Origin: a virus
Virus record (IMG/VR): IMGVR_UViG_3300045988_165521
DNA: 64,000 bases
Direction: 5' to 3' (one strand)
Of the stretch, positions 9,001 to 64,000 are shown in pieces. Made by a program: the position numbers and the translations under genes. How positions within the stretch are numbered: the first letter of the stretch is position 1; the number at the start of each line of letters is the position of its first letter. The notes under the pieces are model-generated. The model was not told where the DNA came from. It saw only the letters and a list, made by a program, of their open reading frames with translations, and did no database searches.

Positions 9001-10686
9001 TCCTAAACGAGAATCAATATTCCAATAATAATTTCTCATACTATCTTCAGATCCAGGTAAACGACTATTTAATGTATAGTTATCATTTCCTGGGTTTTCG
9101 TCATGAAAATAGTATAATTGAGTTTGAGGATTATAATACAATGTAGCTCTTGTTTGAGGATTTGAAGCATCTCCAGTACTTGCTACTTCTTTATATCCTC
9201 CAGTATTTCCTATAGTATAGTAACTATTAAAAGCAGTTGTAGGATTATTTTCATAGTAAGAATTAACTATATTTGGATCTAATTGCTCTTGTAAAGTATT
9301 ATTATAATTAATTCTTTGTTTAGTTAAAGGATCAATATATACTCTTTCTGCTAAAGTTCTTAAAGGGTGTCCATAGGGATCAAACTGAGAAGAATCTTCA
9401 GGATTGTAATTAGGAAAATAATCATAAACTAAAGGATCACCTGCTTGTCTAACATAGTTACCAGTTAGATCTGCAGCATATCGATTTGGTTGAAAATACG
9501 GGGACCACATTGGATTACCTTCTGAATCAACAGAAGTACTAAACCATGGAGATCTAGAACGATTTTCATCCCAATATTGTTTAATAATTGAAGAATTACC
9601 AGCAGTTCTCTTATTATCTGCTACAAAATCTAAATACTTTTGAATTTTAGATAAACTATCTTGGTCATCACCCCTATATACTTTTCCATTAATAACAAAT
9701 AAACCAGAGTCATCTGGAATATAATCCGCATAACTTCCATATTTTCTTTTAAATTCATTATTAAGTCATGCATCTCCAGTTCCAATATATGATAATAATT
9801 CTGGATTATTTATAGTTACATTCCCATTTGAATCAACGTTAAATAGGTTATGGTACTTATCATAATCTCATCCTGCTTTACTTCAGTTTTCTTTTGTTTT
9901 CTTAAGTTCTTCTTGTGCAGGATCTACTTCTTTTTGAGCTTGAACAGGTTTACTTCCTCCTAAAAAGATACCAATATCATCTAATGCCATAGCATCTTCA
10001 TCCGTCCAATTTCCTTGTTCAAGCCTAGATATAATATCTTCTATGCCTTGCTCACCATATTTATTGTAAAAGTCTATATAAGCTTGCTTATCTAAATCAT
10101 TATAGCCTTTAAATTGATCATTATCCCCATAACCTGCAATATCTTTTAGACTACGAAGTCTTCTAGTTGCTTTTAGATTATTAGCTCCATTTATATAAAC
10201 TCTATTTCCATTTACTAATTCAAAATCTCCAGTATCTTTATTACGCTTATATTCCATAGTAATATCACTAGACCAATCTCTAATATTAATTGGATCTAAT
10301 GCTTCTACTGGCTTTTTATATTGAAAATCCTTTAAAGCATGAACTGCATTTCTTGCAGTATTTTCTTTTCCCCTTCATAGATTTCCAAAACTTCTGCCAA
10401 GTCTACTTCGACGTTTACCTAAACGTTCTGCTTGATTATTAGTAACATCAAACTGTACTCCTTCTAATCTATCGGCACTAGAATTATATGATAAATTAGC
10501 ACCTGATCTTAGAGCATCAGTTATTTTACTAAATTGATATGCAGTATCTTGATCTAATGTTTTTCCATAAGAAGACATCTGATTTAGAAAATCATCATCA
10601 ACCTGATATTGATTACCATCTATAGTAAAAGTGCCGTATTTTTGAGGAGTAGAACCACCTTGTTGATATTTAATTACTTGTGCCAT
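6076..10686 (-). CDS. giant tape-measure/ejection-like virion protein, 1536 aa
   Basis: Seven track ORFs (10375..10686, 9883..10257, 8392..9510, 7756..8076, 7420..7638, 6673..7401, 6076..6648) are in one frame. Every break is TGA and every gap was checked free of TAA/TAG. The real stop is TAA at 6076. The protein has a Gly/Ala-rich hydrophobic stretch (VPGFGNVAGAGVGAVGSLTGFG), coiled-coil-like Q-rich parts and several [YF][KQ]xGG motifs. Confidence 0.7.
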
Positions 10687-10761: not shown

Positions 10762-11091
10762 TTACTTTTTAGCAAAGAATTTATTTTTCATTTCCCCGCC
10801 ATTTTCTTTCTTAGCACATTTCTTGCGGCCTACCATCTTTCCACCTTTCTTAAATACAGGTTCTCCTTCAGGAACTTGTCCAACAGGACCTTGTGGTCCT
10901 TCGCTCATAGCTTGTTGTAAAAGAGCTAAGAAACCTTCACAGACTTGAGCCATTGCTTGACAGTCTTGCGTCTGTAATGCTTGAGCTGCCATTTCTGCTA
11001 ACATTTGTAGTGGATCTTGTCCACCTTGTGGACCAGCAGGTGCCGCAGGAACAGGAGCGGACCCGCCTTCTTGATACTTTTTAACTTTCAT
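10762..11091 (-). CDS. small GC-rich Ala/Gln/Pro-rich protein (109 aa) with its own promoter and terminator
   Basis: Intact ORF with no TGA. It starts MKVKKYQEGG and has FKKGG near the C-terminus. GC content is far above that of its neighbours. Confidence 0.75.
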   Translation of the reverse strand: MKVKKYQEGGSAPVPAAPAGPQGGQDPLQMLAEMAAQALQTQDCQAMAQVCEGFLALLQQAMSEGPQGPVGQVPEGEPVFKKGGKMVGRKKCAKKENGGEMKNKFFAKK

Positions 11092-11406: not shown

Positions 11407-12009
11407 CTATTTAGGAGATTCGATAAACTCACTTGGACGATTATCCTGTTCATTTATATATTTAAAAATCTTTTTTCCAAGTTTAGCATAATCAGAATCA
11501 GCTTTACTTTTATTAGCTCTTTTTGCTAATTTTATTAAAGTTCTAGAATTTTTTCTTGAGAAAATACGTTCGCCACCAACTAAATCCATTTGAGGTTTTC
11601 CATCAGATCCAAGAATATACATTTTATCAATTTCTTTTTCATCTATATCCTCTTCAAAGTCTAATTCGTCTCCAATCTGAATTCCAGAATTAGCATTAAC
11701 TTCTAATACATATTTAGTTCTTCCTTCTTCATCTTCAGGAGTAGAAATAATTGGTTCAGAACTATGAGCTTTACCTAATACTACATTATAAACTTCATCA
11801 TCTTGATTTATAAATACTAAATCAATATCGAATTCCATTTCCTCTGTATTAAATACTACTTGACCTTGATCTTCAGGCATTATAAATAACATACCCTCGT
11901 CATCATCCATAGATTCTACATTACCTAAACCCTGAATTCTTTCTTCTTCCGTTTCTGCTATTAGAACTTTATATTCTTTATCTGCTATTTCTATTTTTAC
12001 CTCTTTCAT
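11407..12009 (-). CDS. DUF192-domain protein (200 aa)
   Basis: The N-terminal half matches the DUF192 pattern (..RIQGLGNVESMDDDEGMLFIMPE..VFNTEEMEFDIDLVFIN..). The ATG overlaps the upstream stop in a TAATG junction at 12007-12011. Confidence 0.6.
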   Translation of the reverse strand: MKEVKIEIADKEYKVLIAETEEERIQGLGNVESMDDDEGMLFIMPEDQGQVVFNTEEMEFDIDLVFINQDDEVYNVVLGKAHSSEPIISTPEDEEGRTKYVLEVNANSGIQIGDELDFEEDIDEKEIDKMYILGSDGKPQMDLVGGERIFSRKNSRTLIKLAKRANKSKADSDYAKLGKKIFKYINEQDNRPSEFIESPK

Positions 12010-13352
12010 TATTTCACACTTTTAATTAGTCCACTTCTATCATCTGTATTCTTTAATAGTTCATGACAAACTAATTTTCCAGCTTCAATTGCAATTTCGT
12101 TGGATGAATCTTCTTGATATGCTTTATATAAAGCCTCAAGTTTATCAGTAAATTCTTTTCTAAGTGTCCATTCTTCCTTTTCAATTTCTGCTGTCTGAAC
12201 AATTCCTCCTTCAGATTGTGCTACTACAGGAATTCCTTTTTTAGTAATTTGATCTTTTAATTCTGGATTTACATTTTCTAAATGATGTTTATGTGCATGT
12301 AAGTTTCCTTCAGGAATTAAATTCATCTTACCTCCGAGTTGGAATTTTTGTGTTTCTGTAGATTGTGTTGGTCGTTTCTGTAAGAATGCTCTAGCTTCAT
12401 CTAATTCAGGAAATTTCATTCCGTTTTTAGCCAAGGAATACATATTATCTAATCCATTATAAGTATTGAAGTTTTTACTAGCAAGAGACTGACCTATTTG
12501 ATTATTCAGTCGCTTTTTACCTGCATCTGTAATATCTAAAGTAGTATTTTGCATTCTTCTAGCTCTAGTTATAGCATTTTGGCCTTTTCGATGAAATCCA
12601 AAGTCAAATAATCCAGCTTTTTTATTACTATATTTATCAATACTATTACTGATAAATTTCTTTGAACCACTATATTCGTTACTAATATCAGATGTATTAT
12701 CTACTAATTTATTAATACGCTTTCCTCCAATACCATTAATTAAATTTAATGCAGCTCCAGCAGCCATTCCAATAGGGCCAAGCATACTTAGACCATCACT
12801 TACCATTCCTTGTATTTGAGAACCAGTACCTTCAACACGATCTTTAGTTCCTCCAATAAGATTTCCTATAGTTTTAGCTCCAGTATTAATCATTCCACCC
12901 ATAGGATTAAATTGACTTACTACATTGTGTCCTATGTCTTTAACTCCAGACATTACTTGAGCAGTAGATCCAGTTTTCTCATTTCCTACAAGGGCTGTGT
13001 TAAGATTTCCAATGAACTGGTCTCCCATTTGAAAAGCTCCTCCAAATTTGCCATTTAGCTTATTTACAGTTTCTGCTCCAGCAAATGTATCATTCTGTCA
13101 ATTTCTAACAGAATCTACAGTTTTTTGTGAAAACATACCTTTTGCGGTAGAGAAAGGATTCCTTTTATCTGCATCAGAATCAGATTTAGTATCTTTAAAA
13201 TTTCCAATATCTGATTTGATTTTATTCATAGAAGCACTAATGAAAGCATTATAGTTTCCTAAGTTAAGACCAAGCTGTTTTAACATATCTGGACTAATAA
13301 TATTCCCAGAACTAACTCCTCCTATTTCCATTTTTTTTATTCTTTTATGCAT
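12009..13352 (-). CDS. virion protein, 447 aa, N-terminus MHKRIKKMEIGG
   Basis: Track ORFs 13098..13352 and 12009..13028 are in frame and joined through TGA at 13098. The gap has no TAA/TAG. It contains FQLGGKMNLIPEGNLHAHKHH. Confidence 0.7.
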
Positions 13353-40385: not shown

Positions 40386-40409
40386 GTTTATTTTTTTTTA
40401 AATTTTAAT

Positions 40410-40440
40410 CCCCCCCCCTCACTAAATGTGAGGAAGGGAG
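40410..40440 (-). promoter_or_regulatory. RNA hairpin whose 3' arm is a G9 homopolymer, in the leader of the 38781..40385 gene
   Basis: The minus strand reads CTCCCTTCCTCAC ATTTA GTGAGGGGGGGGG, a 13-bp stem including G-U pairs. The C9 run lies at 40410-40418 on the plus strand. An A9 run follows (40391-40399) before the ATG at 40385. Confidence 0.5.
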
Positions 40441-40459
40441 AAATTATTATTTATTCAAT

Positions 40460-46493: not shown

Positions 46494-47253
46494 AACTATT
46501 ATTTATATTACCTAATTCCTCTCCACATAAAGAATTACATGAAGATAAATTATCTAATATTCTTTGTGCTTCTGTAAAGTTCCCCATATCTTTTAGATAA
46601 TCAAACACATACATAGCACTTAATAAGAAATCTCTGCGATTCCTTAAATTTTCATCTGTTTTACATTTATCATAACTACATATTTTACTGTTATTCAACA
46701 GTAATTGCCGTTGCAAATATACTAAACATCTTTGTAATTTGCAAACACTAAAGACATTTTTTATTGGACAATAGAAAGTTTGTGAAGCCTTATTTTCTTG
46801 CACAAATTCATATGCTTCTTTATAATCAATAATTTCAGAACTTTCAATTACTTCGTCTAATGTATATCCTTCCTGGTCTGTAATATTAGATTTATAAAGA
46901 TCTCCATTAAAAAAAAATAATTCATCTATTAAATTAATATATTTATCAGGCTCTTTATCGTCTTGAAAATGCATTAATTGTGGAACTACTAATTTATAAT
47001 AAGAATAAGTTCCATCAACATTTAATGTAAATTCAGATGCAAATCTACTTAAATAGTGTCCTCGATTATGTAATTCCTTTCTTATTTTTACTGATTCTGG
47101 GAGTAAATTTTCATCAGTATTATAAGATAGAAATTCTAACATTATATACTGACTTAAATCTACACCTAAATAATCACTATTATCTACAGCAATTAATTTA
47201 CAATCAGATCTAACAATTACATCAATATTTATTTTTTTATTCATATTATACAA
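46471..47253 (-). CDS. Cys-rich hypothetical protein, 260 aa
   Basis: Intact TGA-free ORF directly after the portal gene. The C-terminus is ..CNSLCGEELGNINNSCGCGNSI. Confidence 0.6.
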   Translation of the reverse strand: MYNMNKKINIDVIVRSDCKLIAVDNSDYLGVDLSQYIMLEFLSYNTDENLLPESVKIRKELHNRGHYLSRFASEFTLNVDGTYSYYKLVVPQLMHFQDDKEPDKYINLIDELFFFNGDLYKSNITDQEGYTLDEVIESSEIIDYKEAYEFVQENKASQTFYCPIKNVFSVCKLQRCLVYLQRQLLLNNSKICSYDKCKTDENLRNRRDFLLSAMYVFDYLKDMGNFTEAQRILDNLSSCNSLCGEELGNINNSCGCGNSI

Positions 47254-49790
47254 CTTGTTTTATTTTATCATTATAAGGATTAGTATCAACTGTTTCTGCA
47301 GCTTGAATTTGAACTTGTTGCTGTTTTGTTTCAATAAGTTTATCGTTATAATCCTTATCGTTTTTAACTTTTTCTCTTTCAATAGCTACTTTTTCAGCTT
47401 CAAGTTGTAGTCTAGCTTGACTATTTTGTTTAAGTTGATTTTGTGATTGACCTAATTCCCTTTGTAATTGTTCATTTTGTTTCTGTAACTGTTGCAGATT
47501 TTGTTCATATTGCTGAAGTTGTTGCTGCAACTGAGAAACACTATTATTTTCTTCCTTCTTAACAGCAGTAGCTTTAGCTACATAACGTTTAAGTTCGGAC
47601 ATACTATTGGCAGTTGCAATACTTACTGCCATATCGGGATCTGACATTCCAGCTTTAATTAATTCAATATTAAGAGCCTTTACAGTTTCCATATCTTTAA
47701 AAGACTTAGAACTATCCTCAATATGTAAATCAAAATCTGTAAGTGTATAATGTTCAGGAAGTGCAGTAAATATTCTTGAATATTTATTACCTAACACAAT
47801 AGTACCAGTAATACCATTTGGATATACTAATTTAGCTAAATTAAGCATATCATAATTAGCTTCTTTATAAATTATATCCATGGTTTCAAAATATTGTTTA
47901 GTTAATAAACCTGACATTTTAACTCCAAGTTGAACATTAGATACAGCATCTCTCTGTTCATATTGAGCTAACCTCTCAGGTAACACTCCTGTAATTGAAG
48001 AAGCTTGTTGTTCTACAGCTTGAATAGCTAATTGAATACCTTGAATAGCTTGAGCTTTAACTGTATCATCAAATCCATTAAAAATAGTATTAGGCATACC
48101 TTCATTACCTTCCTCCTTACTATTTATTAATGCTAAGCCATTCTTTTTATATGCTTGTCAAGCTTTAACTCGATCTGTTAATTTTTCACCTAAAAACGAA
48201 GGAATAAAAGAAACATCCATCCAATCTCCAACTCCTCCTGAAGAAGCAATAAGATTATCTCTAAAATATATAAGTAAATCATATTTCATTGTTTATTCGA
48301 TATAGGTCGTTAATCTATATCCGTCTTTTTGACTGCTGCATGTCACCATGCAGATTAGACTATATCATACAAATTTGATTTAAAATTAATTCAAATAAAT
48401 TCTGTTTCATTATATTTCATAACTACTTATAATTAATTTTAAATTAAACTTGTCCCCGCACTTCCACTTACTTAAGTGTACTCCTTTCGGATAGTCGTTG
48501 AACTTTCAAAGATATTTCTATCTAAGCTTAGCTGCTGATTGTCTTAAATTTACTATTATTCAATTTAAGGTTTTCCAGCAATTCACGGGGTTTATACAGG
48601 ACTCATATAATTTAATCCTGTAGGTCCATAGTATGTGCTATTAATGAATATGGATCTCCATTTTTATCTAAGAAAAACATTCCATTAACAGATAATCTGC
48701 ATCTACTAGGACAATCTGCACTTCTTACAATATACTTTGATTCTCCACGAGTAATGTATACTTCTGAACCAATTTTTACTCCTTCATGTCTTGTTAATTC
48801 TCCAGTTTTATAATCTGCTTCAATTCATTCAACTTCATATACAGGAATAAGATGATTTTTTATAGGTTCTATTGAATCATAATCTCCAGGTCATCCTGGA
48901 TGTGCTTCAAGTCCTGCAAGAATACCTGTATGTAAATTATCCGCTCGTAAATTAGGTTCAGCAGGTTTACCAACATATCTAACCAAATAAGTAGGAGATG
49001 TTGAATCAGCAGTTTGTTGCATATCTCTAATTTTCTTAGCTGCTTCTGTAGTTAATTCTGATCTGAATGTATTTAAGATATCCTCTCTTGACATTCATTT
49101 TCTAATAACAACTCTCTTAGAATCTGCAAGATAAGGAGAATTTGGATTACGTTCTATAAATGTATTAACGGGATTTAAAATTTCAATATTGACATTTGAA
49201 TTACTTTCTGTAGGTTTTACTCTATAGTAACAAGTACCTGTAACAAGTAAATCTGTAAGTAATTCTGCCATTTTACGTTTTAAATCGATGTTTCTTGATT
49301 GTCTTAAATAATCAAGAATATTTTGTGCAGCAATTTCATATTCCGAAACAAAAGATTGATCAATATCTTGTTGAATTGAGTTGATTTCTTTTTCAATAAA
49401 AGGATCATTTACAATTTCTTTATTTTCAATAATAGCTGCAATAATGTTATTCTTTAAATACTGTTGCAAATAATTAAATACTTCTGCACTAATTTTAAGT
49501 TGCTTTTCTCTCATTATATTTGAAACAGTCTTTTCATCTTTGCAAGATACTTTTAAATCTTGATTTAAACCTAGATATTCTCCAACTAATACATCAATAT
49601 GTTTCTTAATTAATGGTGTAAAACTAACTGATGTAGGAGTCCCAATTCCGTAATTTTCTTCTAGGTGTTTGAATTGATCTGCATCTCTACGACAATGATA
49701 ATATCCATAAGCTTTTCTTATAGCAACTTTATCATATACAAGATTACCTATCGCATCATTAATCTTCTTTACTTCATTCTCTATCACCAT
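47246..49790 (-). CDS. portal protein, split: exon 1 49790..48615, exon 2 48286..47246 (738 aa spliced)
   Basis: Exon 1 (392 codons) and exon 2 (347 codons including the stop) are each open apart from TGA. Joining them gives ..AHTMDLQD|KYDLLIYFRDNLIASSGGVGDWMDV.. with no frame change. The location next to TerL and the size fit a portal protein. Confidence 0.7.
48287..48614 (-). mobile_element. ORF-less group I self-splicing intron (328 nt) in the portal gene
   Basis: The 5' exon ends in U. The exon sequence ACAGGAU pairs with the intron guide GUCCUGU 12 nt downstream (6 Watson-Crick pairs plus a terminal U-G wobble, forming P1). The intron ends in G. Hairpins have GNRA loops (cugcaug-GUGA-caugcag, ucc-GAAA-gga) and there is a terminal 7-bp hairpin gauauag/cuauauc. 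Stops occur in all frames. Confidence 0.7.
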
Positions 49791-56208: not shown

Positions 56209-58137
56209 TTAAAATACTATAGGTTTATCTAAATCTAATTCAGATTTAATCTTAACGTCTCTTTTATAATGTTTAAGCATTCTTTCAACATCTGATTTTA
56301 AATAATCACATTCATGTTCTGAAATATGATTGTTGTGATCAATATGAATTAATACTAATTTTTTAATATTAAAGTTTGGATTAATTTTTTGTAGTAAGTA
56401 AGCATATAATGATAACTGCAACGAATAATGATAAAAATTACAATCCATAATATTATCCATTGGGAATTTCATCATAGTTCTACTTTTAGTAAATTTATTA
56501 TAAAATGATTCTTTTTCTAATTTCTTATTAGTATTATGTGTAACTATCATTGAATCACCGAATAAAAACGTGTGTGATGGACTGTCAACTTCTAAGCATT
56601 GCGTTGCTACTGTATCAACTCTTTCTACAGATATAATATTTCTAAATGTATTCTTATTTTTAGATGGGAAGTCGATATCTTGATTTCTTACTAAAAAGGG
56701 ATTTAATCCATCAGTTGAAAAACATACATCTCATCCTTTAAATATCTTTCCATTACATTTTTTATCTACTTCAAAAACAGTAGCTTTTATGCCTAATGTA
56801 CTTACTAACCTTAATAAATCTTCAGCTTGTCATTTCTGAGTAGTTCCCATTACAAATCTTTTTCTAGATTCATGATAGTAACCATCAGTATCCATTAACC
56901 CTCTAAGCAAATCAAGTCTTTGTTGATAAGAGGCTCGCATATATAAATCAGGTATAAACTTATTATTTAGTATTCCTAGATCGTTAAGTTTTTTTCTAAT
57001 ATTATATATAGTTCGCATTTCCGCAGATTTTCCGTCAGAAAGATCTCCTCCAAAAGTATATCCTCTATTTTCTATTTCTTCCCATACTTTAGAGTTTATA
57101 TTAGTGATAATTCCACATGACTTAGAGCCATCTCCTAGTCAACATCCCAGTACATAAGGATCTATAGGAAGTTCTATTTCTGGAAGATTTAGAGGATTTG
57201 CGTTCATTATTTTTGGGATATTGTACGAGGTTCTTGGTTTATCAATTAACCACTTTGCAATATCTTCTGTGGTCATAACTACTTCCCTAAATGTTTTATC
57301 TATATTCCTAAAAGAAATAAGTCATCTATGTTCATGGTCTGCCACAATCGACTCTCCGTTATCAAAAGTTATTTTAAAACATGGATTGTAATGGATATCT
57401 GATTTATGTAACACTTTAGTTATATTTCCTTCTTTATCAAATATCTCTTCTCCCTCCTTTATATCCTTAATAGTTGTCCATCCGTTTTTAGTTGGAATTT
57501 TTGTATCTAGAGGGAGTCCTTTATAATCGTATATATAAATATCATTACCGTCTTTAATAAGTAAGTCAAGTTGTCCTGCAATTCTTAATAAACCATCTTC
57601 TGATTTATAACTAATCATAAATTCAGGATAAACTCCTTTTTCTAAATCTAATTGATAATATCCTTTCTTGCAAGTAAATTTTCCTCCAAGACCAAATTTC
57701 TTAAGATCTTGTTCTTCAGATTGATAATACATATTCTCAAATTGAGCATGTATTTTTGTTCCTCTTTCACAAGATTTATTTCTTTCTACTTCATACGATT
57801 GAAGTATTTCTGCCCGTTTATTTTCAAACTCTTCTTCGTTGATATTTAACTTTTCAAGTAAAGTTGGATTTCAACGTTTTGTATTTAGTAATGTAGTTTT
57901 AACAACTTTAAAAATTTCTGGTTCTACTAAAGCTTCGCAAGCTTTATATGCAGATCAGAATGCTGAATCAAACTCATTAACATATTTATGTATCAATGTT
58001 GTTACAGATACATAAGGCTTATTATCATATTTATCTAAGTACAGATGTTTTGCATCTGAATAAATAACATCTTCTGTTTCTTTGTCTACTTGATATCCAT
58101 TAACATATTTTTCCTTTACATTACTTAATTTTGGCAT
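56209..58137 (-). CDS. PD-(D/E)XK (RecB/Cas4-like) nuclease precursor containing an intein; extein about 313 aa
   Basis: One frame from 58137 to TAA at 56209. All gaps were checked and contain only TGA. Extein motifs are ERGTKIHAQFE, GQLDLLIKDGNDIYIYDYK|TNKK (the DYKT box is restored after intein removal) and YHYSLQLSLYAYLL (QxxxY). Confidence 0.75.
56533..57519 (-). mobile_element. intein (329 aa) with LAGLIDADG homing-endonuclease domain; class-3-type signature
   Basis: It starts GLPLDTKIPTKNGW (block A with Gly1 instead of Cys/Ser). Block B is GESIVADHEHRW (His at B10, Trp at B12). LAGLIDADG motifs are LGC[W]LGDGS and LLRGLMDTDGY. Block F is TQCLEVDSPSHTF (Cys where class 1 inteins have Asp). 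Block G is MIVTHN followed by Thr+1. Confidence 0.8.
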
Positions 58138-58822
58138 TGTTTATTATATTTGGTTTTATATATTGTTCTATTATTGCTCCGTATCTAATTAAATTCTCTT
58201 TAATAGTACTATCTTCATATCCTACTTCGTTTTCTTTTTCTCAAGTGAATCCTAAAATTCCTGTTGGAGTTCCAGTATCATCTTTTAGTAGAGTACATGC
58301 TAAATATTCTACATTATTTTTTCCAAATCGATCATACATTACATGATCTATTTGTTCTAAAGTAGTTAAGTTACCGATAAACTGATTATGTGTTTTTAAA
58401 TAATCAGGAAGATTTAATCAACTAAGATGAAAATTATCATATTGTTCTTTGATTGAGTGTGCGTTTTCTCCACATAACTCAAATCGCATAGAACCATATA
58501 ATCAATCAGAAATACCATTGTGATATTGTATTACTCATACTCTATCTGCACCTGACATATATAATAGTCTTGGAAGTAAATCTTTAACTTTCTTATCATC
58601 ATCAATCCTATTTAACAATTCTTGTGAATGTTTCTGACTCATATATTCTGAATACTTATCAAATAAAAATGTTGGATCATAACATATTCTCAAAGTAATA
58701 CTTAACATAAACATGATGATTAAGGCTTTAAAGATACTACATACTCCATAATCTCTAATATACTGTAGGATAGTCCCCAGTCATGAGAGTCCTGAGCTTA
58801 AATCATGTTGTTTCTTAGCCAT
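58121..58822 (-). CDS. membrane-anchored hypothetical protein, 233 aa
   Basis: ATG at 58822. There are 5 in-frame TGA. All triplets were checked. TAA at 58121. N-terminal TM segment SIFKALIIMFMLSITL. Confidence 0.6.
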
Positions 58823-58864
58823 ATCTGTTTCTTTAAATTATTTGTATAATTTTATTTGGATGAT

Positions 58865-58896
58865 GCAAATATATAATAATTTTTTTGTATATCCAA
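58865..58896 (-). promoter_or_regulatory. Bacteroidota-type promoter (TTTG-N20-TAtaTTTG), minus-strand arm of a divergent pair
   Basis: The minus strand reads TTTGgatatacaaaaaaattattaTAtaTTTG, upstream of the ATG at 58822. Confidence 0.6.
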
Positions 58897-58911
58897 ATAA
58901 ATCAGTAAAAT

Positions 58912-58943
58912 GTTTGTATATAATTAAATAAATAACTATATTT
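58912..58943 (+). promoter_or_regulatory. Bacteroidota-type promoter (TTTG-N20-TAtaTTTG), plus-strand arm
   Basis: TTTGtatataattaaataaataacTAtaTTTG, about 55 nt upstream of the ATG at 58998. Confidence 0.6.
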
Positions 58944-58997
58944 GCAGAAATAATGTGCTAACATAATGTAAATAAAATTTTAAAAATATTATAATTT

Positions 58998-59276
58998 ATG
59001 AAGTATAACGATGAAATACTAAACAAAATTGCTGAGTCTTATAGTAAAAAGATTGATGAAAATACTAATCTAGATAATGTAATACTTGGTTATTTAGAAA
59101 TGATGAAGAATGGTAGTAAAATCCATATTAAACCAGAAAATAGAGGTAAATTTAATGCTACTAAAAAGAAGACAGGTAAAACTACTGAAGAATTAACACA
59201 TAGTAAAAATCCAGTAACCAGAAAACGTGCTATTTTTGCTCAGAATGCTGCTAAGTGAAATAAGGGTAAAAAATAA
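58998..59276 (+). CDS. small basic protein, 92 aa
   Basis: Track ORF 58998..59258 ends at TGA and continues NKGKK to TAA at 59274. The C-terminal part is IHIKPENRGKFNATKKKTGKTTEELTHSKNPVTRKRAIFAQNAAK[W]. Confidence 0.6.
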
Positions 59277-59280
59277 AGGT

Positions 59281-60381
59281 ATGATAAAACAATTTATCTT
59301 TCAAAATATAGCTGGGGGGGGGGTTACTACTATAAGTTATGTAATAGGAGCAACTCTTTTTAGTAAAGGAGTATCAGAATTAGTATACGTTGATGAAACT
59401 AATGCGCATCACCTTTTAAAGAGATGAAATAATGAGTTAATAACGAATTTTACAATTGAAGTTCCAAAAAATATATTAACTTCTAGTTGAGGTCTTCAAT
59501 TAAAGTTGATAAATCCTGATTATGATGATGATTATAAGAGTTTTATTCAATCTTCTGTATATATGGATGGAACAGACATTACAAATTATGCTTATATTGA
59601 ATCAAGCACTGCACCTGATTCACATATTAATTTTAATGTTCTAACGGATGTTGGAGTTATTAGAAAAAATCTAACTATTACAATTAATCAACTTCCTATC
59701 AATGTATTCTATTTAACTTATAATTCTATTAATAAGCCAACTAGTACATTTGTTAATTTCAACCTTAATTCTAGTCTAGGTGTTACCGAATCAACAACCT
59801 GTAAACTAACTTATGGAACTGAAGGTGCAACTACTATAAAAACTGTAACATTACCAGCTGGAGAAAATATAGTAAGAGAACAAACTGGAACATTTTTTGC
59901 TACAATTCCATTAAATATGTATATTACTCCAAAAGAGTCTTCTAATATATTAAATAGACAGAATCTTTATTCTGGATTTGTTTGTATGAATTTTGATGAC
60001 GCTTACTTATATAATTCTACACCAGATGAACTTTTAAGTTGAAAAGAGGTTAAAACTAATTTCTGAAATAATAATATAAGTAAAACTAAAGTTACATTAA
60101 CTTTAACAACTACTGATGGAGATATTGTAAGTGCTCTTACGATGTTATCTATAGATAATAAAACTTTAATGTTCTTCTTTGATCCTAGAAGTAATATATA
60201 TAACCAAGCAGTTGAATCTATGACTTTTAAAGACGAATATTTAGGGTATAATCTTAGATATGAATTCCCAAGTAGCACTTCTGCCTGAACGACCCAGATA
60301 CAATTAAATGGACAATTTATAGGCCTAACAAATATTGGAACCTTAGAACCTGTTCCATTTAGGGGAAAATATAAAATATAA
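59281..60381 (+). CDS. beta-rich N/T/Y-rich protein, 366 aa, with G10 tract at codons 12-15
   Basis: ATG at 59281. One frame through TGA at 59425, 59488, 60040, 60064 and 60286. All triplets were checked. TAA at 60379. It is a distant paralog of the minus-strand gene at 63122..64000. Confidence 0.7.
59314..59323 (+). repeat. G10 homopolymer inside a coding region
   Basis: GCT GGG GGG GGG GTT. G9 or G11 would give a stop within 4 or 17 codons respectively. Confidence 0.9.
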
Positions 60382-60384
60382 TAA

Positions 60385-60410
60385 AAAAGGAACCCAATTG
60401 GGTTCCTTTT
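60385..60410. terminator. bidirectional intrinsic terminator between convergent genes
   Basis: aaaaggaaccc aatt gggttcctttt. Confidence 0.8.
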
Positions 60411-60413
60411 GTT

Positions 60414-60602
60414 TTAAGTTCTCATTTCTACACTAAATACTTCGAAATTAATCTCTACGTTTTCTCATTTTGGAAGACTGACTGCAGTTACAAATCCTCA
60501 TGAAGAAGACATAACTAGATGACAATCAACATCATTGTGTGTTTCTATTTCGTTTGTATCTATATTTCTTATTGTAACATTAACTCTTCCTATATTATCC
60601 AT
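60414..60602 (-). CDS. hypothetical small protein, 62 aa
   Basis: ATG at 60602. Two in-frame TGA. TAA at 60414, just 3' of the terminator stem. Confidence 0.4.
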
Positions 60603-60889
60603 TCCAAGTACTTCTATACCATCCTTCTATACCACATATTGCAATAAATATAAAATAGGTCAGTTCTGGGTTTATTAATATAGGATCTTCTTCCTCTTTC
60701 GCTAAATAATAGTTTGCATTTTGTCCTCAAGATTGATATACTTGTGGTGGATAAGATACAGGTAAGAAATCAGAATACATTCCTTCATTTAAGGATAGTT
60801 CTTCAGAAATAGCTCCTCCATCTTGTGTTATTAAGTATAATTTTGCTTCTTATGTATTTGGGAATGCAGTTAAAGTTCCTTCGTATCCA

Positions 60890-61609
60890 CTATTTCTTTG
60901 TTACAATAAATGTAGCACCAACAGAATATACTGTAGCATCATTAAGAGTAGCTATATCTTGTGCAAATAGTTTAGTATTATTTCCAAGATCTTCTGATTC
61001 TGTAAATATCATAAAGAACCCTTCATTTGAATAATTCATAAGGTTCTGCATACATGTATAAGAGCTTGCATTACTAATTACAAAATGACATGTAGAAGAA
61101 CCTGCTCTTATCATTAGGTCAGACTCACCTATTCATTGATTCCAATCTGCAGGCATTATAACACATTCTTCTGAATATTTATTTCCCAGCATAAAAGTAA
61201 GTGATGCAAATGCTGCTAAAGAAGAATTCTTTGGATTTCCACTAAGGCCATTAGTGCCATTAAATAAATCTACAGGAGTATCTAATTCTTGTATAACAGA
61301 GTCTCCTGTAAAAAGAAAATTTCTAAATTCAGAATCAGGAAATTCTGTTATATTAAAAGCAATCGGATATCCAAAAATGTCTCAACTTCTTTGAATCTCT
61401 TCTATAACATTAACATTATAAGGTGCTGCAACTGCAGTTAATGTATTATAATTTCCTGAAGAATCTAAATCTGTAGGTTTTGCTAATTGTAATATGGCAT
61501 GGAACTCATCATTACCCTCATGATACGTGCAGGTAGCTACTAACACTATACTTTCAGGAAATGGTGCTAATTTAATCTTGTTTATATTTTGTGATATAAA
61601 TGTTTTCAT
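60890..61609 (-). CDS. hypothetical protein, 239 aa
   Basis: Track ORFs 61382..61609 and 60890..61114 are in frame and joined by TGA (61382, 61133). The gap was checked. It ends with a genuine TAG at 60890. Confidence 0.6.
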
Positions 61610-61724
61610 TTTCTTTTATTTTTGTTTCTTGTTCAAATTCAAGAATTTTACTATAAAACTCAAAAAAGAATTCTTCGAGTGTTATCTTGGAATTCCTTTT
61701 TGCATTTTCTAATAAATCATTCAT
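61572..61724 (-). CDS. very small ORF (50 aa) in the lysis cassette
   Basis: ATG at 61724, TAA at 61572. It overlaps the next gene by 38 nt. Confidence 0.3.
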   Translation of the reverse strand: MNDLLENAKRNSKITLEEFFFEFYSKILEFEQETKIKENENIYITKYKQD

Positions 61725-61729
61725 AGTTA

Positions 61730-62125
61730 TTACCGTTTAGGAACTCCTCCAAACTTATCAGCTTGATTTTCTGGCCAAACTGAATAATAACTTTTAGCTC
61801 TAAGTTTAGCACTAATTCTTCTAAGACCTACTCAGCAAATACTGCATAAACCAGGGCCAGGTAAATAAAGCCATCCTCATCTAATACTCTGTCTTGTGTG
61901 GCCTCATTCATGATCTTTAATGCTGTTTCTATTATATTTTCTAGCAGATTCACCCATTAGAATATATAATCCTAATGAAATACCTCCAGGAAAGTCGCCA
62001 GCATAAATTGGAATTTGTTTGTATGTTTCTTTATACTCTACATTATAGAGTTTGGTTAAGATGAGACCTAGGAGACACTGTGGGAACTCCCAGATCCATC
62101 TTAATAGTTTAATATATCATTTCAT
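61730..62125 (-). CDS. multi-pass membrane protein with HE[W]GH motif, 131 aa (lysis-cassette partner, holin-like position)
   Basis: ATG at 62125. There are 4 in-frame TGA, all triplets were checked, and TAA is at 61730. Hydrophobic segments are LLRWIWEFPQCLLGLIL, GGISLGLYILMG and GWLYLPGPGLCSIC. The KDHE[TGA]GHTRQS motif has its middle residue encoded by TGA. Confidence 0.55.
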
Positions 62126-62128
62126 ATG

Positions 62129-62560
62129 TTATGCTTTAAAAAAGTATAGTTTTTTCCCATGTGTATTTGGAGAAATATCAATGTGTAATCAAGAGATTTC
62201 ACCTTTATTGTCTCATTTTTCTACTCGTATAGGATATCTAAGTTTATCTTGATTATTTTCGAGAATTTCTCTCATCTCTTTAGCAGTTAATTTAGTTGAT
62301 ATTAAATCAAACGCTTGACCTTTATAATGATAGCCTGTAGGAGTACCAACTCCACATCCAGGTTCTCTATAACCACTATAATTTCTAGATCCTCCTGCAT
62401 ATCAATTATTGCATATAAGAGGAACATTTAGAATTTCTCTAACATTCTCTAAAGCTTCAAGAGCTTTTGGATCTAGAAATTTTATAGCATCATCACCATA
62501 TTGATTATATATTTTAGATGATACTAATTCTTTTACTTGAAAATATTTATTTGCTTGCAT
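62129..62560 (-). CDS. endolysin, peptidase M15 (VanY/L-Ala-D-Glu peptidase-like), 143 aa
   Basis: ..GGSRNYSGYREPGCGVGTPTGYHYKGQAFDL.. and ..S[W]LHIDISP.. match the M15 metal-ligand pattern (H..G.A.D and W.H.D). There are three in-frame TGA. TAA at 62129. An alternative upstream ATG lies at 62599. Confidence 0.7.
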
Positions 62561-62561
62561 A

Positions 62562-63122
62562 TTAATTAGTACATGGATTATATAAGCATGCTCATGCATG
62601 TCCTATAAAAATCTTATTTCTAATATAATTATCTTCAATTTTATCTAACATTGTATAAAGCTCTGAAATTTTATATAATCAATGCTCTCCTTTATTTGAA
62701 GATTTTATAATTAAAGGAGTAAAGTTAAGTTCTTTAGATATAGAGGCCACTATTTTGTTTGCATTCTCAGAATATTCATCAGCATCATATAAACCATAAA
62801 AATCTTCATTTATAATAATATCTTTTAGCTGAGGTTTAATTCCAAAAACTTTAAACCGCTCTCACTCTATCTGAGATAAAAATCCAGAGGACAATCTTTT
62901 TGAAACAGTATCAATATATACTCTAGCGTAGTATTCTTCTGCAACTTTGATTATATCTGGCATAGTTTCTTTTAATGATTCAAATGAACCAAAAAATAAA
63001 TCTTTACAGATTCTTTTTTGAGTAGAATGACCATCTTTCAATCTTGAAAGAATTATTACTCTTACATAATAATCTTTTTCAAAGTGAAGAATAGGTTTTA
63101 ATATCTCTAAATTATTTATCAT
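62562..63122 (-). CDS. hypothetical protein, 186 aa
   Basis: ATG at 63122 (TAATG overlap). Track ORF 62862..63122 continues through TGA (62862, 62679, 62592) to TAA at 62562. Confidence 0.6.
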
Positions 63123-64000
63123 TATTGAAGGTATGTGTTAATATCATATATGAGATAAGATCCTACCAGACTTTCGTCTATATAATTTGAATCTCCATTT
63201 ACTGCAGTTTGTCCAGTTATAATAGGTATTCTTATCTGTTCAACTGCACTAAGTATAGCATCTATTTCCCCTGCAAAATAATAAGAAAGTACTGCATAAT
63301 TTACTCCCATATACATATTAGAAGCCATTCCATCTTTATCTACACATCTTAAATCAAATTGAGGTCTTGTCATACTAGAAACTAAATCTGCACGTTTAGC
63401 TCAATTAGTTTGTAGTTTACTTATATATGGATTGCTATTTGCATTAAATTCTAAAGTCATAGGATTGTTTACTACTAATATTCCTGCACTTGAATTATAT
63501 AAATCTGCTTTAAATATTCCTTGATAACTTCCAAACTGACTAATATCCATATAAAGATTAGTGTTTACTGCAATATATTCTCCTGATGCAGAAAACTCTG
63601 TGGGAGCTATATAATCGTATTTTGGATTAGGGTTACATATTTCAATAGTTGCAGAATTAAACGTCATACGTTCTAATGAAGATATTGGAAACGATAAGTA
63701 TACAGGTATAGCAAAATTCTTATGATCGAAACCAATACCTGTATCTTCTATTGTTCCCACAGATACAGTATAGTTTACAGGTATTGGAATCTCAACTCTC
63801 AAATAAGTAAATGTTAAACTTACAGTTATTTTAAAATATTGTTCTTGATCATCATAATCTAAAGGATAATCAAATGAAACCCCAAATAAGTAATTAGCCG
63901 TGCGTAAGGGTTCAATACCTGAATCTGTAATTTTTGGAACTGTATAATTTGGGCCATAAAAATAAAAATAAGACTTATTTATTTTTTTACTCCCCCCCCC
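63122..64000 (-). CDS. beta-rich protein, partial (N-terminus beyond the window end), paralog of 59281..60381
   Basis: Track ORFs 63401..63802 and 63122..63373 are in frame and joined by TGA at 63401. The frame stays open up to base 64000, where the codons read GGG GGG GGG followed by SKKINKSYFYFYG. Confidence 0.65.
63992..64000 (-). repeat. homopolymer of 9 or more C on the plus strand (poly-G on the coding strand), truncated by the window end
   Basis: The last nine bases of the window are C. Confidence 0.85.

What the first reader, a model, noticed from the sequence alone, without database searches (positions are those of the whole stretch)
59281..59330. G10 tract 33 nt into a gene on the only plus-strand cassette: candidate phase-variable (contingency) locus
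The genome is about 30% GC and runs of more than 5 G/C are otherwise absent. Even so, codons 12-15 of 59281..60381 read GCT GGG GGG GGG GTT (G10 at 59314..59323). Loss or gain of one G gives a stop after 4 or 17 codons, which is the classic layout of slipped-strand ON/OFF switches. Hypermutable poly-G tracts are known to drive receptor-binding-protein variation in Campylobacter phages. I am not aware of an equivalent described for Bacteroidota or recoded phages. The encoded protein is beta-rich and N/T/Y-rich, and it lies in an insulated cassette with its own promoter and terminator.
Basis: partly seen in the sequence, partly recalled or inferred. Interest (0 to 1): 0.7.

Follow-up and report, generated by a model that had tools for sequence, protein, structure and literature searches.

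The report
Hypervariable poly-G switch genes in gut phage
The G10 run is real and marks a family of phage genes that all start with the same short leader followed by a poly-G run; the run's length differs between nearly identical gut phage genomes, leaving the genes in or out of frame, and it is also the breakpoint at which a 4.7-kb segment has flipped.

Summary
The G10 at 59314-59323 is real. It lies 11 codons into a 366-aa gene (59281-60381; TGA read as Trp).

In about 60 public assemblies of related human-gut phages, the same 26-nt leader (MIKQFIFQN) plus poly-G heads at least eight different gene bodies. Run length ranges from G5 to G13, with interrupted forms. About 25 copies are in frame and 30 out of frame. 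The adjacent A7 run never varies, and GGG is the rarest glycine codon (4.3%). Switching within one population could not be tested without reads.

A second gene with the same module, in inverted orientation, ends at the window edge. The 4.7 kb between the two copies is inverted in this window compared with nine of nine relatives that show both flanks. A second, independent flipped lineage has its crossover exactly inside the G run. No recombinase was found.

The encoded proteins are orphans predicted to form tandem beta-sandwich domains; their function is inferred, not shown. No description of this was found in the searched literature. The Campylobacter phage poly-G genes are the closest analogue, and they are not homologous.

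The parts
58998..59276 (+). Upstream 92-aa ORF (KIHIKPENRGKF... motif). Its homologues are annotated 'transcriptional regulator' in Crassvirales records. It ends 4 nt before the leader ATG and supplies the 'regulator-side' context of the switch.
   Evidence: Its 3' half is the only part of 58800-60500 with DNA similarity (71-82%) to GenBank Crassvirales records.
59281..59306 (+). Conserved 26-nt leader ATGATAAAACAATTTATCTTTCAAAA (MIKQFIFQ + first two bases of the N codon), shared by a family of genes. It forms part of the left inverted-repeat arm.
   Evidence: Leader variants differ mostly at synonymous positions (ATA/ATT, CAA/CAG, ATC/ATA/ATT).
59307..59313 (+). Spacer TATAGCT between leader and tract. 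Other copies carry CAG or TATCACT here.
59314..59323 (+). G10 tract, read as GGG GGG GGG G(TT). It is in frame (ON) in this window.
   Evidence: The same tract is G5-G11 in 12 aligned relatives.
59281..60381 (+). Gene A, 366 aa with five in-frame TGA=Trp codons. It is an orphan protein predicted to consist of tandem beta-sandwich domains.
60385..60410 (.). Bidirectional intrinsic-terminator hairpin between the convergent gene A and the minus-strand cassette.
59324..63991 (.). Interior of the invertible segment. It is reversed in this window relative to nine of nine relatives that have both flanks.
60414..60780 (-). Two small ORFs that together are a frameshifted remnant, lacking the leader, of poly-G gene family 'G'.
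60890..61609 (-). 239-aa protein of unknown function inside the segment. Part of it (61045-61599) is absent from the 99.9%-identical relative L054.
61730..62125 (-). 131-aa protein with a hydrophobic N-terminus, next to the endolysin gene. A role as holin or lysis accessory is inference only.
62129..62599 (-). Endolysin (phrog_894, E 8.5e-22; weak Peptidase_M15_3 match).
62562..63122 (-). 186-aa protein of unknown function.
63122..64000 (-). Gene B (about 301 aa in relatives). It is open from the poly-G run to its stop, with no in-frame ATG for 110 codons. Its leader lies just beyond the window end.
63992..64000 (-). G run of at least 9, cut by the window end. It is the start of the right inverted-repeat arm. 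In the near-identical L054 it reads leader2 + TATCAC + G9.
40410..40418 (-). Separate, non-coding G9. It is the 3' arm of a conserved 14-bp RNA hairpin 25 nt upstream of the ATG (40385) of a 534-aa fibre-like gene. It is not part of the leader family.

Best explanation
The G10 is one copy of a roughly 40-nt module that heads a family of accessory genes in a lineage of TGA-recoded, crAss-like human-gut phages. The module consists of a start codon, a conserved 9-codon leader (MIKQFIxQN), a 3-7 nt spacer and a poly-G run.

Shown:
- The run is maintained at the nucleotide level, against codon bias.
- Its length differs between otherwise nearly identical genomes. The leader ATG is therefore either in frame with a 120-366 aa body (ON) or followed by a stop after 3-13 codons (OFF).

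Inferred: the length changes arise by slipped-strand mispairing during phage DNA replication. Each burst would then contain a mixture of ON and OFF variants of each family member, as in classic contingency loci.

Shown in addition: two such modules sit in inverted orientation 4.1-4.75 kb apart. They flank a cassette holding the endolysin and other genes, with gene A at one end and gene B at the other. The interior occurs in both orientations in nature. In at least one lineage the crossover lies exactly inside the G run. The module therefore also acts as a recombination junction that swaps which upstream region and leader drives which gene body, and it has shuffled leaders among bodies A, B, D and F.

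Inferred: the exchange occurs by microhomology or template switching at the G/C runs, or by a recombinase that has not been identified.

Inferred, with weak support: the products are surface-exposed adhesin or receptor-binding accessory proteins, and their stochastic expression hedges against the phase-variable surfaces of Bacteroidales hosts.
For: - Non-random and selected tract. Three runs of nine or more G occur against 0.01 expected. GGG makes up 58 of 1361 Gly codons (4.3%), and there is no other adjacent GGG-GGG pair in 49 genes.
- The tract is coding. The leader ATG is the only ATG for 94 codons (gene A) or 110 codons (gene B) upstream of the body. Leader variants differ mainly at synonymous sites. 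Gene callers recover full-length proteins that start MIKQFI.QN.
- Hypervariability. In about 55 family copies from IMG/VR, ENA, JGI and Logan assemblies, run length is G1-G13, mostly G7-G10. About 25 are ON and 30 OFF. The window's own tract is G5-G11 in 12 relatives, and the sister tract is G4-G10 in 24. Among G/C runs of at least 7, 11 of 55 keep their length, against 160 of 171 for A/T runs. The A7 that directly follows the gene-B tract is constant. The 120 protein clusters show a scrambled junction (GGGV, GGS, GEGV, GWGG, RGGG and others) between a conserved leader and a conserved body.
- Hints of heterogeneity within a sample. The two ends of one 177,852-nt contig overlap at the same locus with C11 at one end and C9 at the other. 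Several contigs break inside the tract.
- Family. At least eight body types carry the module, and 175-kb relatives have up to five such genes within 3.5 kb. A relative with only 53% MCP identity has two G9 tracts early in two adjacent small genes, one ON and one OFF.
- Inversion. The inverted repeat is 41 nt and 80% complementary, with 4112 nt between the arms, in L054, which is 99.9% identical to the window. In nine of nine comparisons the flanks are collinear and the interior reversed. The flipped state occurs in the window, L048, L053, L054, L067 and seven protein clusters. L067 joins regulator-leader1-CAG to gene A through the G run. L054 joins leader2-TATCAC to gene B through the G run. 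L031 has a hybrid leader. The longest exact match between the arms is 8-10 nt, too short to mislead an assembler using k of 21 or more.
- Fold. An AF2 model built on the A/F/D alignment has pLDDT 70 and pTM 0.63, is all-beta, and matches only tandem FN3, Ig and macroglobulin-type arrays.
Against: - No read-level data were available. Reversible, high-frequency switching within one phage population is not shown, and the variation seen is between assemblies.
- Gene A is OFF in 9 of 13 assemblies, which would also fit a decaying, dispensable gene.
- Most flipped genomes share one spacer type (TATAGCT). Inversion may therefore be rare and historical, with at least two events, rather than a fast switch.
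- No recombinase was found in the cassette or in the 64-kb window. About 35-40 kb of the genome was not seen.
- The protein function has no homology support. Pfam, PHROGs, 1.84 billion cluster representatives and GenBank phages gave nothing informative. The structural matches are generic, with TM-scores of 0.12-0.22.
- The long A9 and T9 runs that could be compared also varied, though only three or four comparisons were available for each. The contrast between G/C and A/T runs is therefore partly confounded by run length.
Confidence: 0.65

Rival explanations
1. The leader plus poly-G is mainly a recombination site. It would be the crossover core of a shufflon-like or Mu-G-like inversion and cassette-exchange system, acting through an unidentified recombinase or through template switching. 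On this reading, frame changes at the run are a tolerated by-product rather than the selected function.
For: Crossovers map to the run. The same leader and spacer combinations occur on bodies A, B, D and F. The layout of one conserved arm, a core and one non-conserved arm resembles shufflon sfx sites (from general knowledge). The inverted arrangement is also conserved in 175-kb relatives (L013).
Against: No recombinase is present in or next to the segment. Both ends carry their own upstream region and start codon, so inversion does not switch a gene on or off in the way the Mu G segment does. Many family members are single genes that are not paired in inverted orientation (L020 cluster). A recombination core has no need to be ten G long or to vary from G5 to G13. 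This rival is not exclusive of the main explanation.
Confidence: 0.25
2. The run is only an unstable Gly linker that drifts slowly. The differences between assemblies would then be ordinary evolutionary divergence or pseudogenisation of dispensable genes, with no meaningful switching within a phage population.
For: All evidence is between assemblies. Gene A is mostly OFF. Gene C looks degenerate, with a 53-aa body. The window carries a dead family member at 60414-60780. Interrupted, 'locked' tracts exist (L004, L015, L044).
Against: The pure G run is retained against a 4.3% codon preference in at least eight gene families and in a relative with 53% MCP identity. Genomes 99% identical in their flanks differ at the tract: the window and L054 differ at the gene-B tract. 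The two ends of one contig carry C9 and C11. ON states exceed the one in three expected by chance for gene B (14 of 23) and gene F (4 of 5).
Confidence: 0.15
3. Expression is set at the RNA level. Polymerase stuttering on the G run, or ribosomal frameshifting, would produce in-frame product whatever the genomic length, so the run would act as a rheostat rather than an ON/OFF switch.
For: Long homopolymers are known slippage sites for RNA polymerases (general knowledge: paramyxovirus P gene, bacterial A/T runs). OFF consensus genomes are common yet the bodies stay intact.
Against: There is no direct evidence. There is no significant RNA structure around the tract (z = -1.5). In-frame lengths are enriched for genes B and F, which would not be expected if genomic length were irrelevant.
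Confidence: 0.1
4. The tract, its length variation or the inversion is a sequencing or assembly artefact, for example two-colour poly-G signal or a mis-join at repeats.
For: Several contigs end inside the tract, which shows that assemblers struggle there.
Against: The tract is internal and in frame. Its flanks are unique sequence in many independent projects and pipelines. Lengths span G5-G13, with interrupted forms that restore the frame. The adjacent A7 is invariant. The inverted-repeat arms share at most 8-10 nt of exact identity, too little for a de Bruijn mis-join, and the flipped state recurs in at least five DNA assemblies.
Confidence: 0.03

Closest known systems
Hypermutable poly-G tracts in Campylobacter phages (Sorensen et al. 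2021, Cell Rep 35:109214; cited in PMC12823448)
   Same: These are phage-encoded poly-G runs inside coding sequence. Their length changes turn genes on or off and create subpopulations. Each genome has several tracts, and the genomes are AT-rich.
   Different: There is no sequence homology: tblastn of gene A against 50,697 phage records found nothing. The host phylum is different (human-gut, crAss-like, TGA-recoded phage). Here all tracts sit 10-12 codons into the gene behind a shared leader, the genes form a shuffled multigene family, and the tracts double as inversion breakpoints. A receptor-binding role is shown for the Campylobacter phages and is only inferred here.
Bacterial simple-sequence contingency loci (Campylobacter, Neisseria, Haemophilus poly-G/C phasomes; e.g. 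PMC6321876, PMC4235727)
   Same: A homopolymer lies near the 5' end of an ORF. Its length is polymorphic between close relatives, it causes frame-dependent ON/OFF states, each genome has many loci, and the products are accessory or surface-related.
   Different: Here the loci are carried by a lytic-type phage genome. Switching frequency has not been measured. The shared translated leader is not a usual feature of bacterial contingency genes.
Phage Mu G segment / P1 C segment (Gin/Cin invertases) and the R64 shufflon (Rci)
   Same: Inverted repeats flank a multi-kb segment that carries two alternative gene bodies in opposite orientation. Both orientations are found. A constant N-terminal part is fused to alternative bodies.
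   Different: No invertase was found. The constant part is only 9-11 codons. Both repeat arms carry their own start codon and upstream region, so inversion exchanges contexts rather than silencing one body. The arms are only 80% identical, and the crossover lies in a homopolymer.
Diversity-generating retroelements of Bacteroides phages (Benler et al. 2018, cited in PMC12823448)
   Same: These are a phage-encoded mechanism for diversifying accessory or receptor-binding proteins in gut phages.
   Different: DGRs work by mutagenic reverse transcription, a completely different mechanism. No reverse transcriptase or template repeat is present here.

Membership tests
Slipped-strand (SSR) phase-variable contingency locus | Homopolymeric tract of about 7 or more inside the 5' part of an ORF (or in its promoter) | tested here: met
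   G10 at codons 12-15 of 59281-60381. The sister tract lies in gene B.
Slipped-strand (SSR) phase-variable contingency locus | Tract length polymorphic among closely related genomes while the flanks are conserved | tested here: met
   G5-G13 across about 55 copies. G/C runs keep their length in 11 of 55 comparisons, against 160 of 171 for A/T runs.
Slipped-strand (SSR) phase-variable contingency locus | Length changes toggle the reading frame between a full-length product and early termination | tested here: met
   ON gives 300-366 aa and OFF gives 12-27 aa. Both states are present in consensus assemblies.
Slipped-strand (SSR) phase-variable contingency locus | Tract maintained by selection at the nucleotide level | tested here: met
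   GGG is 4.3% of Gly codons, with no other adjacent GGG-GGG pair in 49 genes. The run is retained in at least eight gene families and in a distant relative.
Slipped-strand (SSR) phase-variable contingency locus | High-frequency, reversible switching within a clonal population | not testable with these tools
   No reads were available. The only hints are C9 versus C11 at the two ends of one contig and contigs that break inside the tract.
Campylobacter-phage poly-G receptor-binding genes | Sequence or structural homology to those proteins | tested here: not met
   tblastn against 50,697 phage records found no match. There were no Pfam or PHROG hits.
Campylobacter-phage poly-G receptor-binding genes | Product is a receptor-binding or virion protein | tested here: inconclusive
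   The AF2 model (pLDDT 70) consists of tandem beta-sandwiches. Foldseek hits are generic FN3, Ig and MG arrays with TM-scores of 0.22 or less.
Site-specific invertible segment (Mu G/Gin, P1 C/Cin, shufflon/Rci) | Inverted repeats flanking the segment | tested here: met
   Arms of 41 nt, 80% complementary, 4112 nt apart in L054. In the window, the left arm is 59281-59323 and the right arm begins at 63992.
Site-specific invertible segment (Mu G/Gin, P1 C/Cin, shufflon/Rci) | Both orientations observed | tested here: met
   Observed between genomes: the interior is reversed in nine of nine relatives, and there are at least two independent flipped lineages. Not tested within one population.
Site-specific invertible segment (Mu G/Gin, P1 C/Cin, shufflon/Rci) | Dedicated serine or tyrosine recombinase encoded nearby | tested here: not met
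   Pfam and PHROGs on the cassette proteins found none. Neighbouring genes in L054 include none. A motif scan of all frames of the window and six loci found none. The rest of the genome was not seen.
Site-specific invertible segment (Mu G/Gin, P1 C/Cin, shufflon/Rci) | Constant 5' gene part outside the segment fused to alternative 3' parts inside it | tested here: inconclusive
   A 9-11 codon leader is fused to body A or body B. However, both arms have their own start codon, so neither body is left without a start.

The most novel reading that the evidence does not exclude
A widespread lineage of TGA-recoded crAss-like gut phages carries its own 'phasome'. This is a multigene family whose members share a 40-nt module of leader plus poly-G. 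The module would act both as a slipped-strand ON/OFF switch and as a microhomology junction for inversion and cassette shuffling. A single burst would then yield combinatorially different virions or infection programmes, a phage counterpart to the phase-variable capsules of its Bacteroidales hosts. If so, this would be the first such system described outside Campylobacter phages, and the first in which a homopolymer serves both roles.
Probability: 0.45. Interest if true: 0.88.

Novelty: new variant of a known kind. Interest (0 to 1): 0.78.

Why it matters
CrAss-like phages coexist for years with Bacteroidales hosts that continually switch their surface structures. How the phage keeps pace is an open question. 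A phage-encoded set of stochastic switches would be a direct answer that can be tested. The genes involved are abundant in human-gut data: single protein clusters hold 600-1,700 member sequences.

There is also a practical consequence. Poly-G tracts break assemblies and produce apparent pseudogenes, and annotation with the standard code hides these genes altogether. A homopolymer that serves as an inversion breakpoint without any visible recombinase would also be of mechanistic interest.

Tried and rejected
- **Close genomes in GenBank phages.** Megablast of 24 kb of the window against GenBank phages found no close genome. Only the small upstream ORF matches Crassvirales DNA.
- **Family searches.** Pfam and PHROGs searches of genes A, B, B'', D, E, F, G, H, I and K found nothing beyond a sub-threshold PEGA hit.
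- **Exhaustive protein search.** A profile-free search of 1.84 billion cluster representatives with a gene-A homologue gave 18 hits. All were fragments of the same family except one RTX protein, rejected as a compositional match.
- **Are A and B paralogues?** BLASTP gave E = 0.3, so they are not detectably related. A, D and F are homologous to one another.
- **First structure model.** The first AF2 model, built on a shallow alignment, had pLDDT 51 and was discarded.
- **Looking up the window's own protein.** A 99.9%-identical contig, L054, was used instead.
- **RNA structure at the G10.** Not significant (z = -1.5). The 40410 tract, by contrast, is a strong hairpin and was set aside as a different element.
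- **Recombinase motifs.** A regular-expression scan found no hits. This is a weak test.
- **tRNA scan.** No suppressor tRNA was found in the window.
- **Literature.** Four searches for poly-G tracts, phase variation or inversion in crAss-like or Bacteroides phages found no description.
Full report

Positions 59314-59323 are a run of ten G. The window is 31% G+C, and only 13% of the plus strand is G. A nine-G pattern occurs at three tracts, against 0.01 expected from 100 dinucleotide-preserving shuffles.

That is wrong. There is a C9 at 40410-40418 and a C9 at 63992-64000, the latter cut by the window end. Both are G runs on the minus strand, which is the strand of the local genes.

The ORF 59281-60381 exists only if TGA is read as a sense codon. 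Treating TGA as coding raises summed ORF length from 16,370 to 27,018 aa. The 49 other genes contain 143 in-frame TGA codons. All five Trp of this gene are TGA, and they align with invariant W columns in homologues.

With G10 the leader ATG is in frame with a 366-aa product. G9 stops after three more codons, and G11 after twelve. A bidirectional terminator hairpin follows at 60385-60410.

**2. What genome is this?**

Terminase, a split portal gene, the major capsid protein and fibre-like genes lie on the minus strand. The small ORF at 58998-59276 shares 71-82% DNA identity with 'transcriptional regulator' genes of many Crassvirales. The capsid protein, in contrast, has only two GenBank phage hits, both at 53% identity and both unclassified human-faecal contigs. 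Related contigs in public data come from human gut samples and fall into two size classes, about 96-105 kb and about 166-178 kb. The window therefore comes from a TGA-recoded, crAss-like human-gut phage that has no close cultured or annotated relative.

**3. The tract belongs to a shared module.**

I first scanned IMG/VR for sequence next to the tract at the window end. In nine relatives, the gene that runs leftwards from 64000 ('gene B') is preceded by exactly the same 26 nt that begin the gene at 59281 ('gene A'). That sequence is ATGATAAAACAATTTATCTTTCAAAA, followed by a few bases and a G run.

I then scanned IMG/VR and the metagenome collection with the leader itself and surveyed every run of eight or more G in the 423 kb fetched. 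Nearly all such runs lie 30-36 nt after an ATG that opens a short conserved leader. The leaders read MIKQFI[FSTA]QN, MNKLFISQNK, MTQSFISQNLA or MAITLNTT.

At least eight different bodies follow these leaders:
- A, D and F, which are homologous to one another;
- B and its variants;
- C, E, G, H/I and K.

Relatives with 175-kb genomes hold up to five such genes within 3.5 kb (L020). A relative with only 53% capsid-protein identity (MT835470.1) has two G9 runs early in two adjacent small genes. These genes use a different shared leader motif; one is in frame and the other is not.

Several observations show that the leader is translated:
- Leader variants differ mainly at synonymous positions.
- No other in-frame ATG exists for 94 codons (A) or 110 codons (B).
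- Gene callers recover hundreds of full-length proteins that start with the leader.

**4. The run is hypervariable.**

- Across about 55 family copies, run length spans G1 to G13, mostly G7-G10. Interrupted versions also occur (GAGAGGGGGG, AGAGGTGGGG, GGGTGGGGGGG), as does one complete deletion.
- By a rough tally, about 25 copies are in frame and 30 out of frame. Gene B is 14 ON and 9 OFF, gene A is 4 ON and 9 OFF, and gene F is 4 ON and 1 OFF.
- In BLAST alignments at 90% identity or more, the window's tract is G5-G11 in 12 relatives, and the gene-B tract is G4-G10 in 24.
- G/C runs of at least 7 keep their length in 11 of 55 comparisons. A/T runs of at least 7 do so in 160 of 171. The few A9 and T9 runs that could be compared also varied, so this contrast is partly confounded by run length.
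- The A7 that directly follows the gene-B tract is constant.
- In 120 protein clusters of gene A, the junction between the conserved leader and the conserved body is scrambled: GGGV, GGGG, GGS, GEGV, GGEV, GWGG, RGGG and others.
- GGG is the rarest Gly codon (4.3% of 1361). No other gene in the window has two adjacent GGG codons. The run is therefore kept as a nucleotide feature, not as a glycine linker.
- L054 is 99.3-99.9% identical to the window, yet differs from it at the gene-B tract.

Two hints point to heterogeneity within a single sample. The two ends of one 177,852-nt contig overlap at the same locus, with C11 at one end and C9 at the other. Several contigs also end inside the tract. 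I had no reads, so switching within a population is inferred rather than shown.

**5. The 'only plus-strand cassette' results from an inversion.**

L054 extends past the window end. There, gene B is preceded by a second leader copy in inverted orientation: ATGATTAAACAGTTTATATCACAAAATATCAC followed by G9. The two arms form a 41-nt inverted repeat that is 80% complementary, with 4112 nt between the arms in L054 and about 4.7 kb in the window.

In all nine relatives for which both flanks are held, the outer flanks are collinear with L054. The interior, which corresponds to window 59324-63991, is reversed in each. In this common arrangement the regulator-side leader drives gene B followed by the endolysin cassette. 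Gene A faces them from the other side, behind its own upstream region.

The flipped arrangement of the window recurs in L048, L053, L054 and seven protein clusters whose N-terminus begins inside the regulator gene.

L067 is an independent flipped lineage. It keeps the regulator-side spacer CAG and joins it, through the G run, to gene A. In L054 the other arm keeps its spacer TATCAC and joins, through the G run, to gene B. The crossover in these cases therefore lies inside the homopolymer. L031 shows a crossover inside the leader. The same leader and spacer combinations also occur on bodies A, B, D and F.

The arms share at most 8-10 nt of exact identity. Assembler mis-joins can therefore be excluded, and classical homologous recombination is unlikely.

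No recombinase was found in the cassette, in the neighbouring genes of L054, or by a crude motif scan. About 35-40 kb of the genome was not visible.

Most flipped genomes share one spacer type. This fits a small number of historical events at least as well as it fits a fast switch.

**6. What are the proteins?**

Genes A and B have no Pfam or PHROG match. Gene A has no tblastn hit in 50,697 phage records. It has only 18 relatives among 1.84 billion cluster representatives, essentially all fragments of the same family.

An AlphaFold model built on the mixed A/F/D alignment reached pLDDT 70 and pTM 0.63. It is all-beta. Foldseek returned only arrays of FN3, Ig and macroglobulin-type beta-sandwiches, in both the PDB and the viral library, with low TM-scores. 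This is compatible with exposed adhesin-like or decoration-like proteins but proves nothing.

The cassette between A and B holds the endolysin (phrog_894). It also holds a dead, leaderless member of family G at 60414-60780.

**7. Mechanism and rival explanations.**

The best-supported reading is a family of contingency genes. Replication slippage in the G run would set each gene ON or OFF stochastically, and the module also serves as a microhomology junction for inversion and shuffling.

The rival explanations are:
- The module is primarily a recombination site. This is not exclusive of the main reading, and it is weakened by the absence of a recombinase and by unpaired family members.
- The variation reflects slow drift or pseudogenisation. 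This is weakened by retention of the run against codon bias across distant relatives and by differences between 99%-identical genomes.
- Slippage at the RNA level sets expression. This was not tested.
- The feature is an artefact. This is essentially excluded.

The G9 at 40410-40418 is a different element. It forms the 3' arm of a conserved 14-bp RNA hairpin (-24.9 kcal/mol, z = -4.6) located 25 nt upstream of the start of a fibre-like gene.

**8. Comparison with what is known, and novelty.**

The system works like bacterial poly-G contingency loci and like the poly-G genes of Campylobacter phages (Sorensen 2021, cited in PMC12823448). It is not homologous to them. It differs in having a shared translated leader, in its multigene shuffling, and in the use of the tract as an inversion breakpoint.

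It resembles the Mu G segment and shufflons in geometry. It fails the recombinase criterion for membership, and both of its arms carry start codons.

Four full-text searches found no description of poly-G tracts or invertible segments in crAss-like or Bacteroides phages. I rate it a new variant of a known kind.

Noticed in passing
window 40396-40441 (minus strand): A conserved 14-bp RNA hairpin, CUCCCUUCCUCAC / GUGAGGGGGGGGG, held partly by G:U pairs (dG -24.9, z -4.6). It lies between two fibre-like genes, 25 nt upstream of the ATG at 40385. The G-run arm varies from G7 to G11, or is interrupted, in nine relatives. It may be a terminator or a translational element.
   Followed up: partly
window 47246-48289 and 48612-49790 (minus strand): The portal protein is split into two ORFs. 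They match the C-terminal and N-terminal halves of the same PHROG portal profile and are separated by about 320 nt. This may be an intron, or a recoding or frameshift event.
   Followed up: no
window 56209-58137 (minus strand): A 642-aa protein with an internal LAGLIDADG-like region (weak Pfam hit on the identical gene in L054). This suggests an intein or homing-endonuclease insertion.
   Followed up: no
window 4178-6073, 6076-10686, 10762-11091, 12009-13352 (minus strand): Several large proteins, presumably virion or cargo proteins, share an N-terminal K(Y)QxGG motif (MKIKRYQNGG, MAQVIKYQQGG, MKVKKYQEGG, ..MEIGG). This may be a processing or targeting signal.
   Followed up: no
whole window: TGA is a sense codon: 143 in-frame TGA codons occur in 49 genes. 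No tRNA gene of any kind is present in these 64 kb.
   Followed up: partly
window 60414-60780 (minus strand): Two small ORFs together form a frameshifted, leaderless remnant of poly-G gene family G, which is intact (182 aa) in L013, L019 and L020.
   Followed up: yes
window 61045-61599: This roughly 550-nt stretch, inside the 239-aa gene, is absent from L054, which is otherwise 99.9% identical.
   Followed up: no
L054 18813-18821 (also L004 3793, L051 11591, L005 111): A G8-G9 run without a leader lies in a divergent intergenic region next to an HTH-domain gene, just beyond the window end. Its length varies (5, 8, 9) in relatives. It may be a phase-variable promoter spacer.
   Followed up: partly
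MT835470.1 112042 and 112715 (L066): A distant relative (capsid protein 53% identical) has two G9 runs 20-40 codons into two adjacent small genes that share the motif C.T.KQ..ND.L.S.GGG. The first is out of frame and the second in frame.
   Followed up: partly
window 59106-59281: The 3' half of the small 'regulator' ORF is 71-82% identical at the DNA level to genes in several Crassvirales families. The capsid gene, in contrast, has no detectable similarity to those genomes. This module appears to be unusually conserved or horizontally mobile.
   Followed up: no
L012 start / L013 end (IMGVR_UViG_3300045988_154597): The two ends of one 177,852-nt contig overlap across the same leader plus poly-G locus, with C11 at one end and C9 at the other. 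This hints at tract heterogeneity within a single sample.
   Followed up: partly
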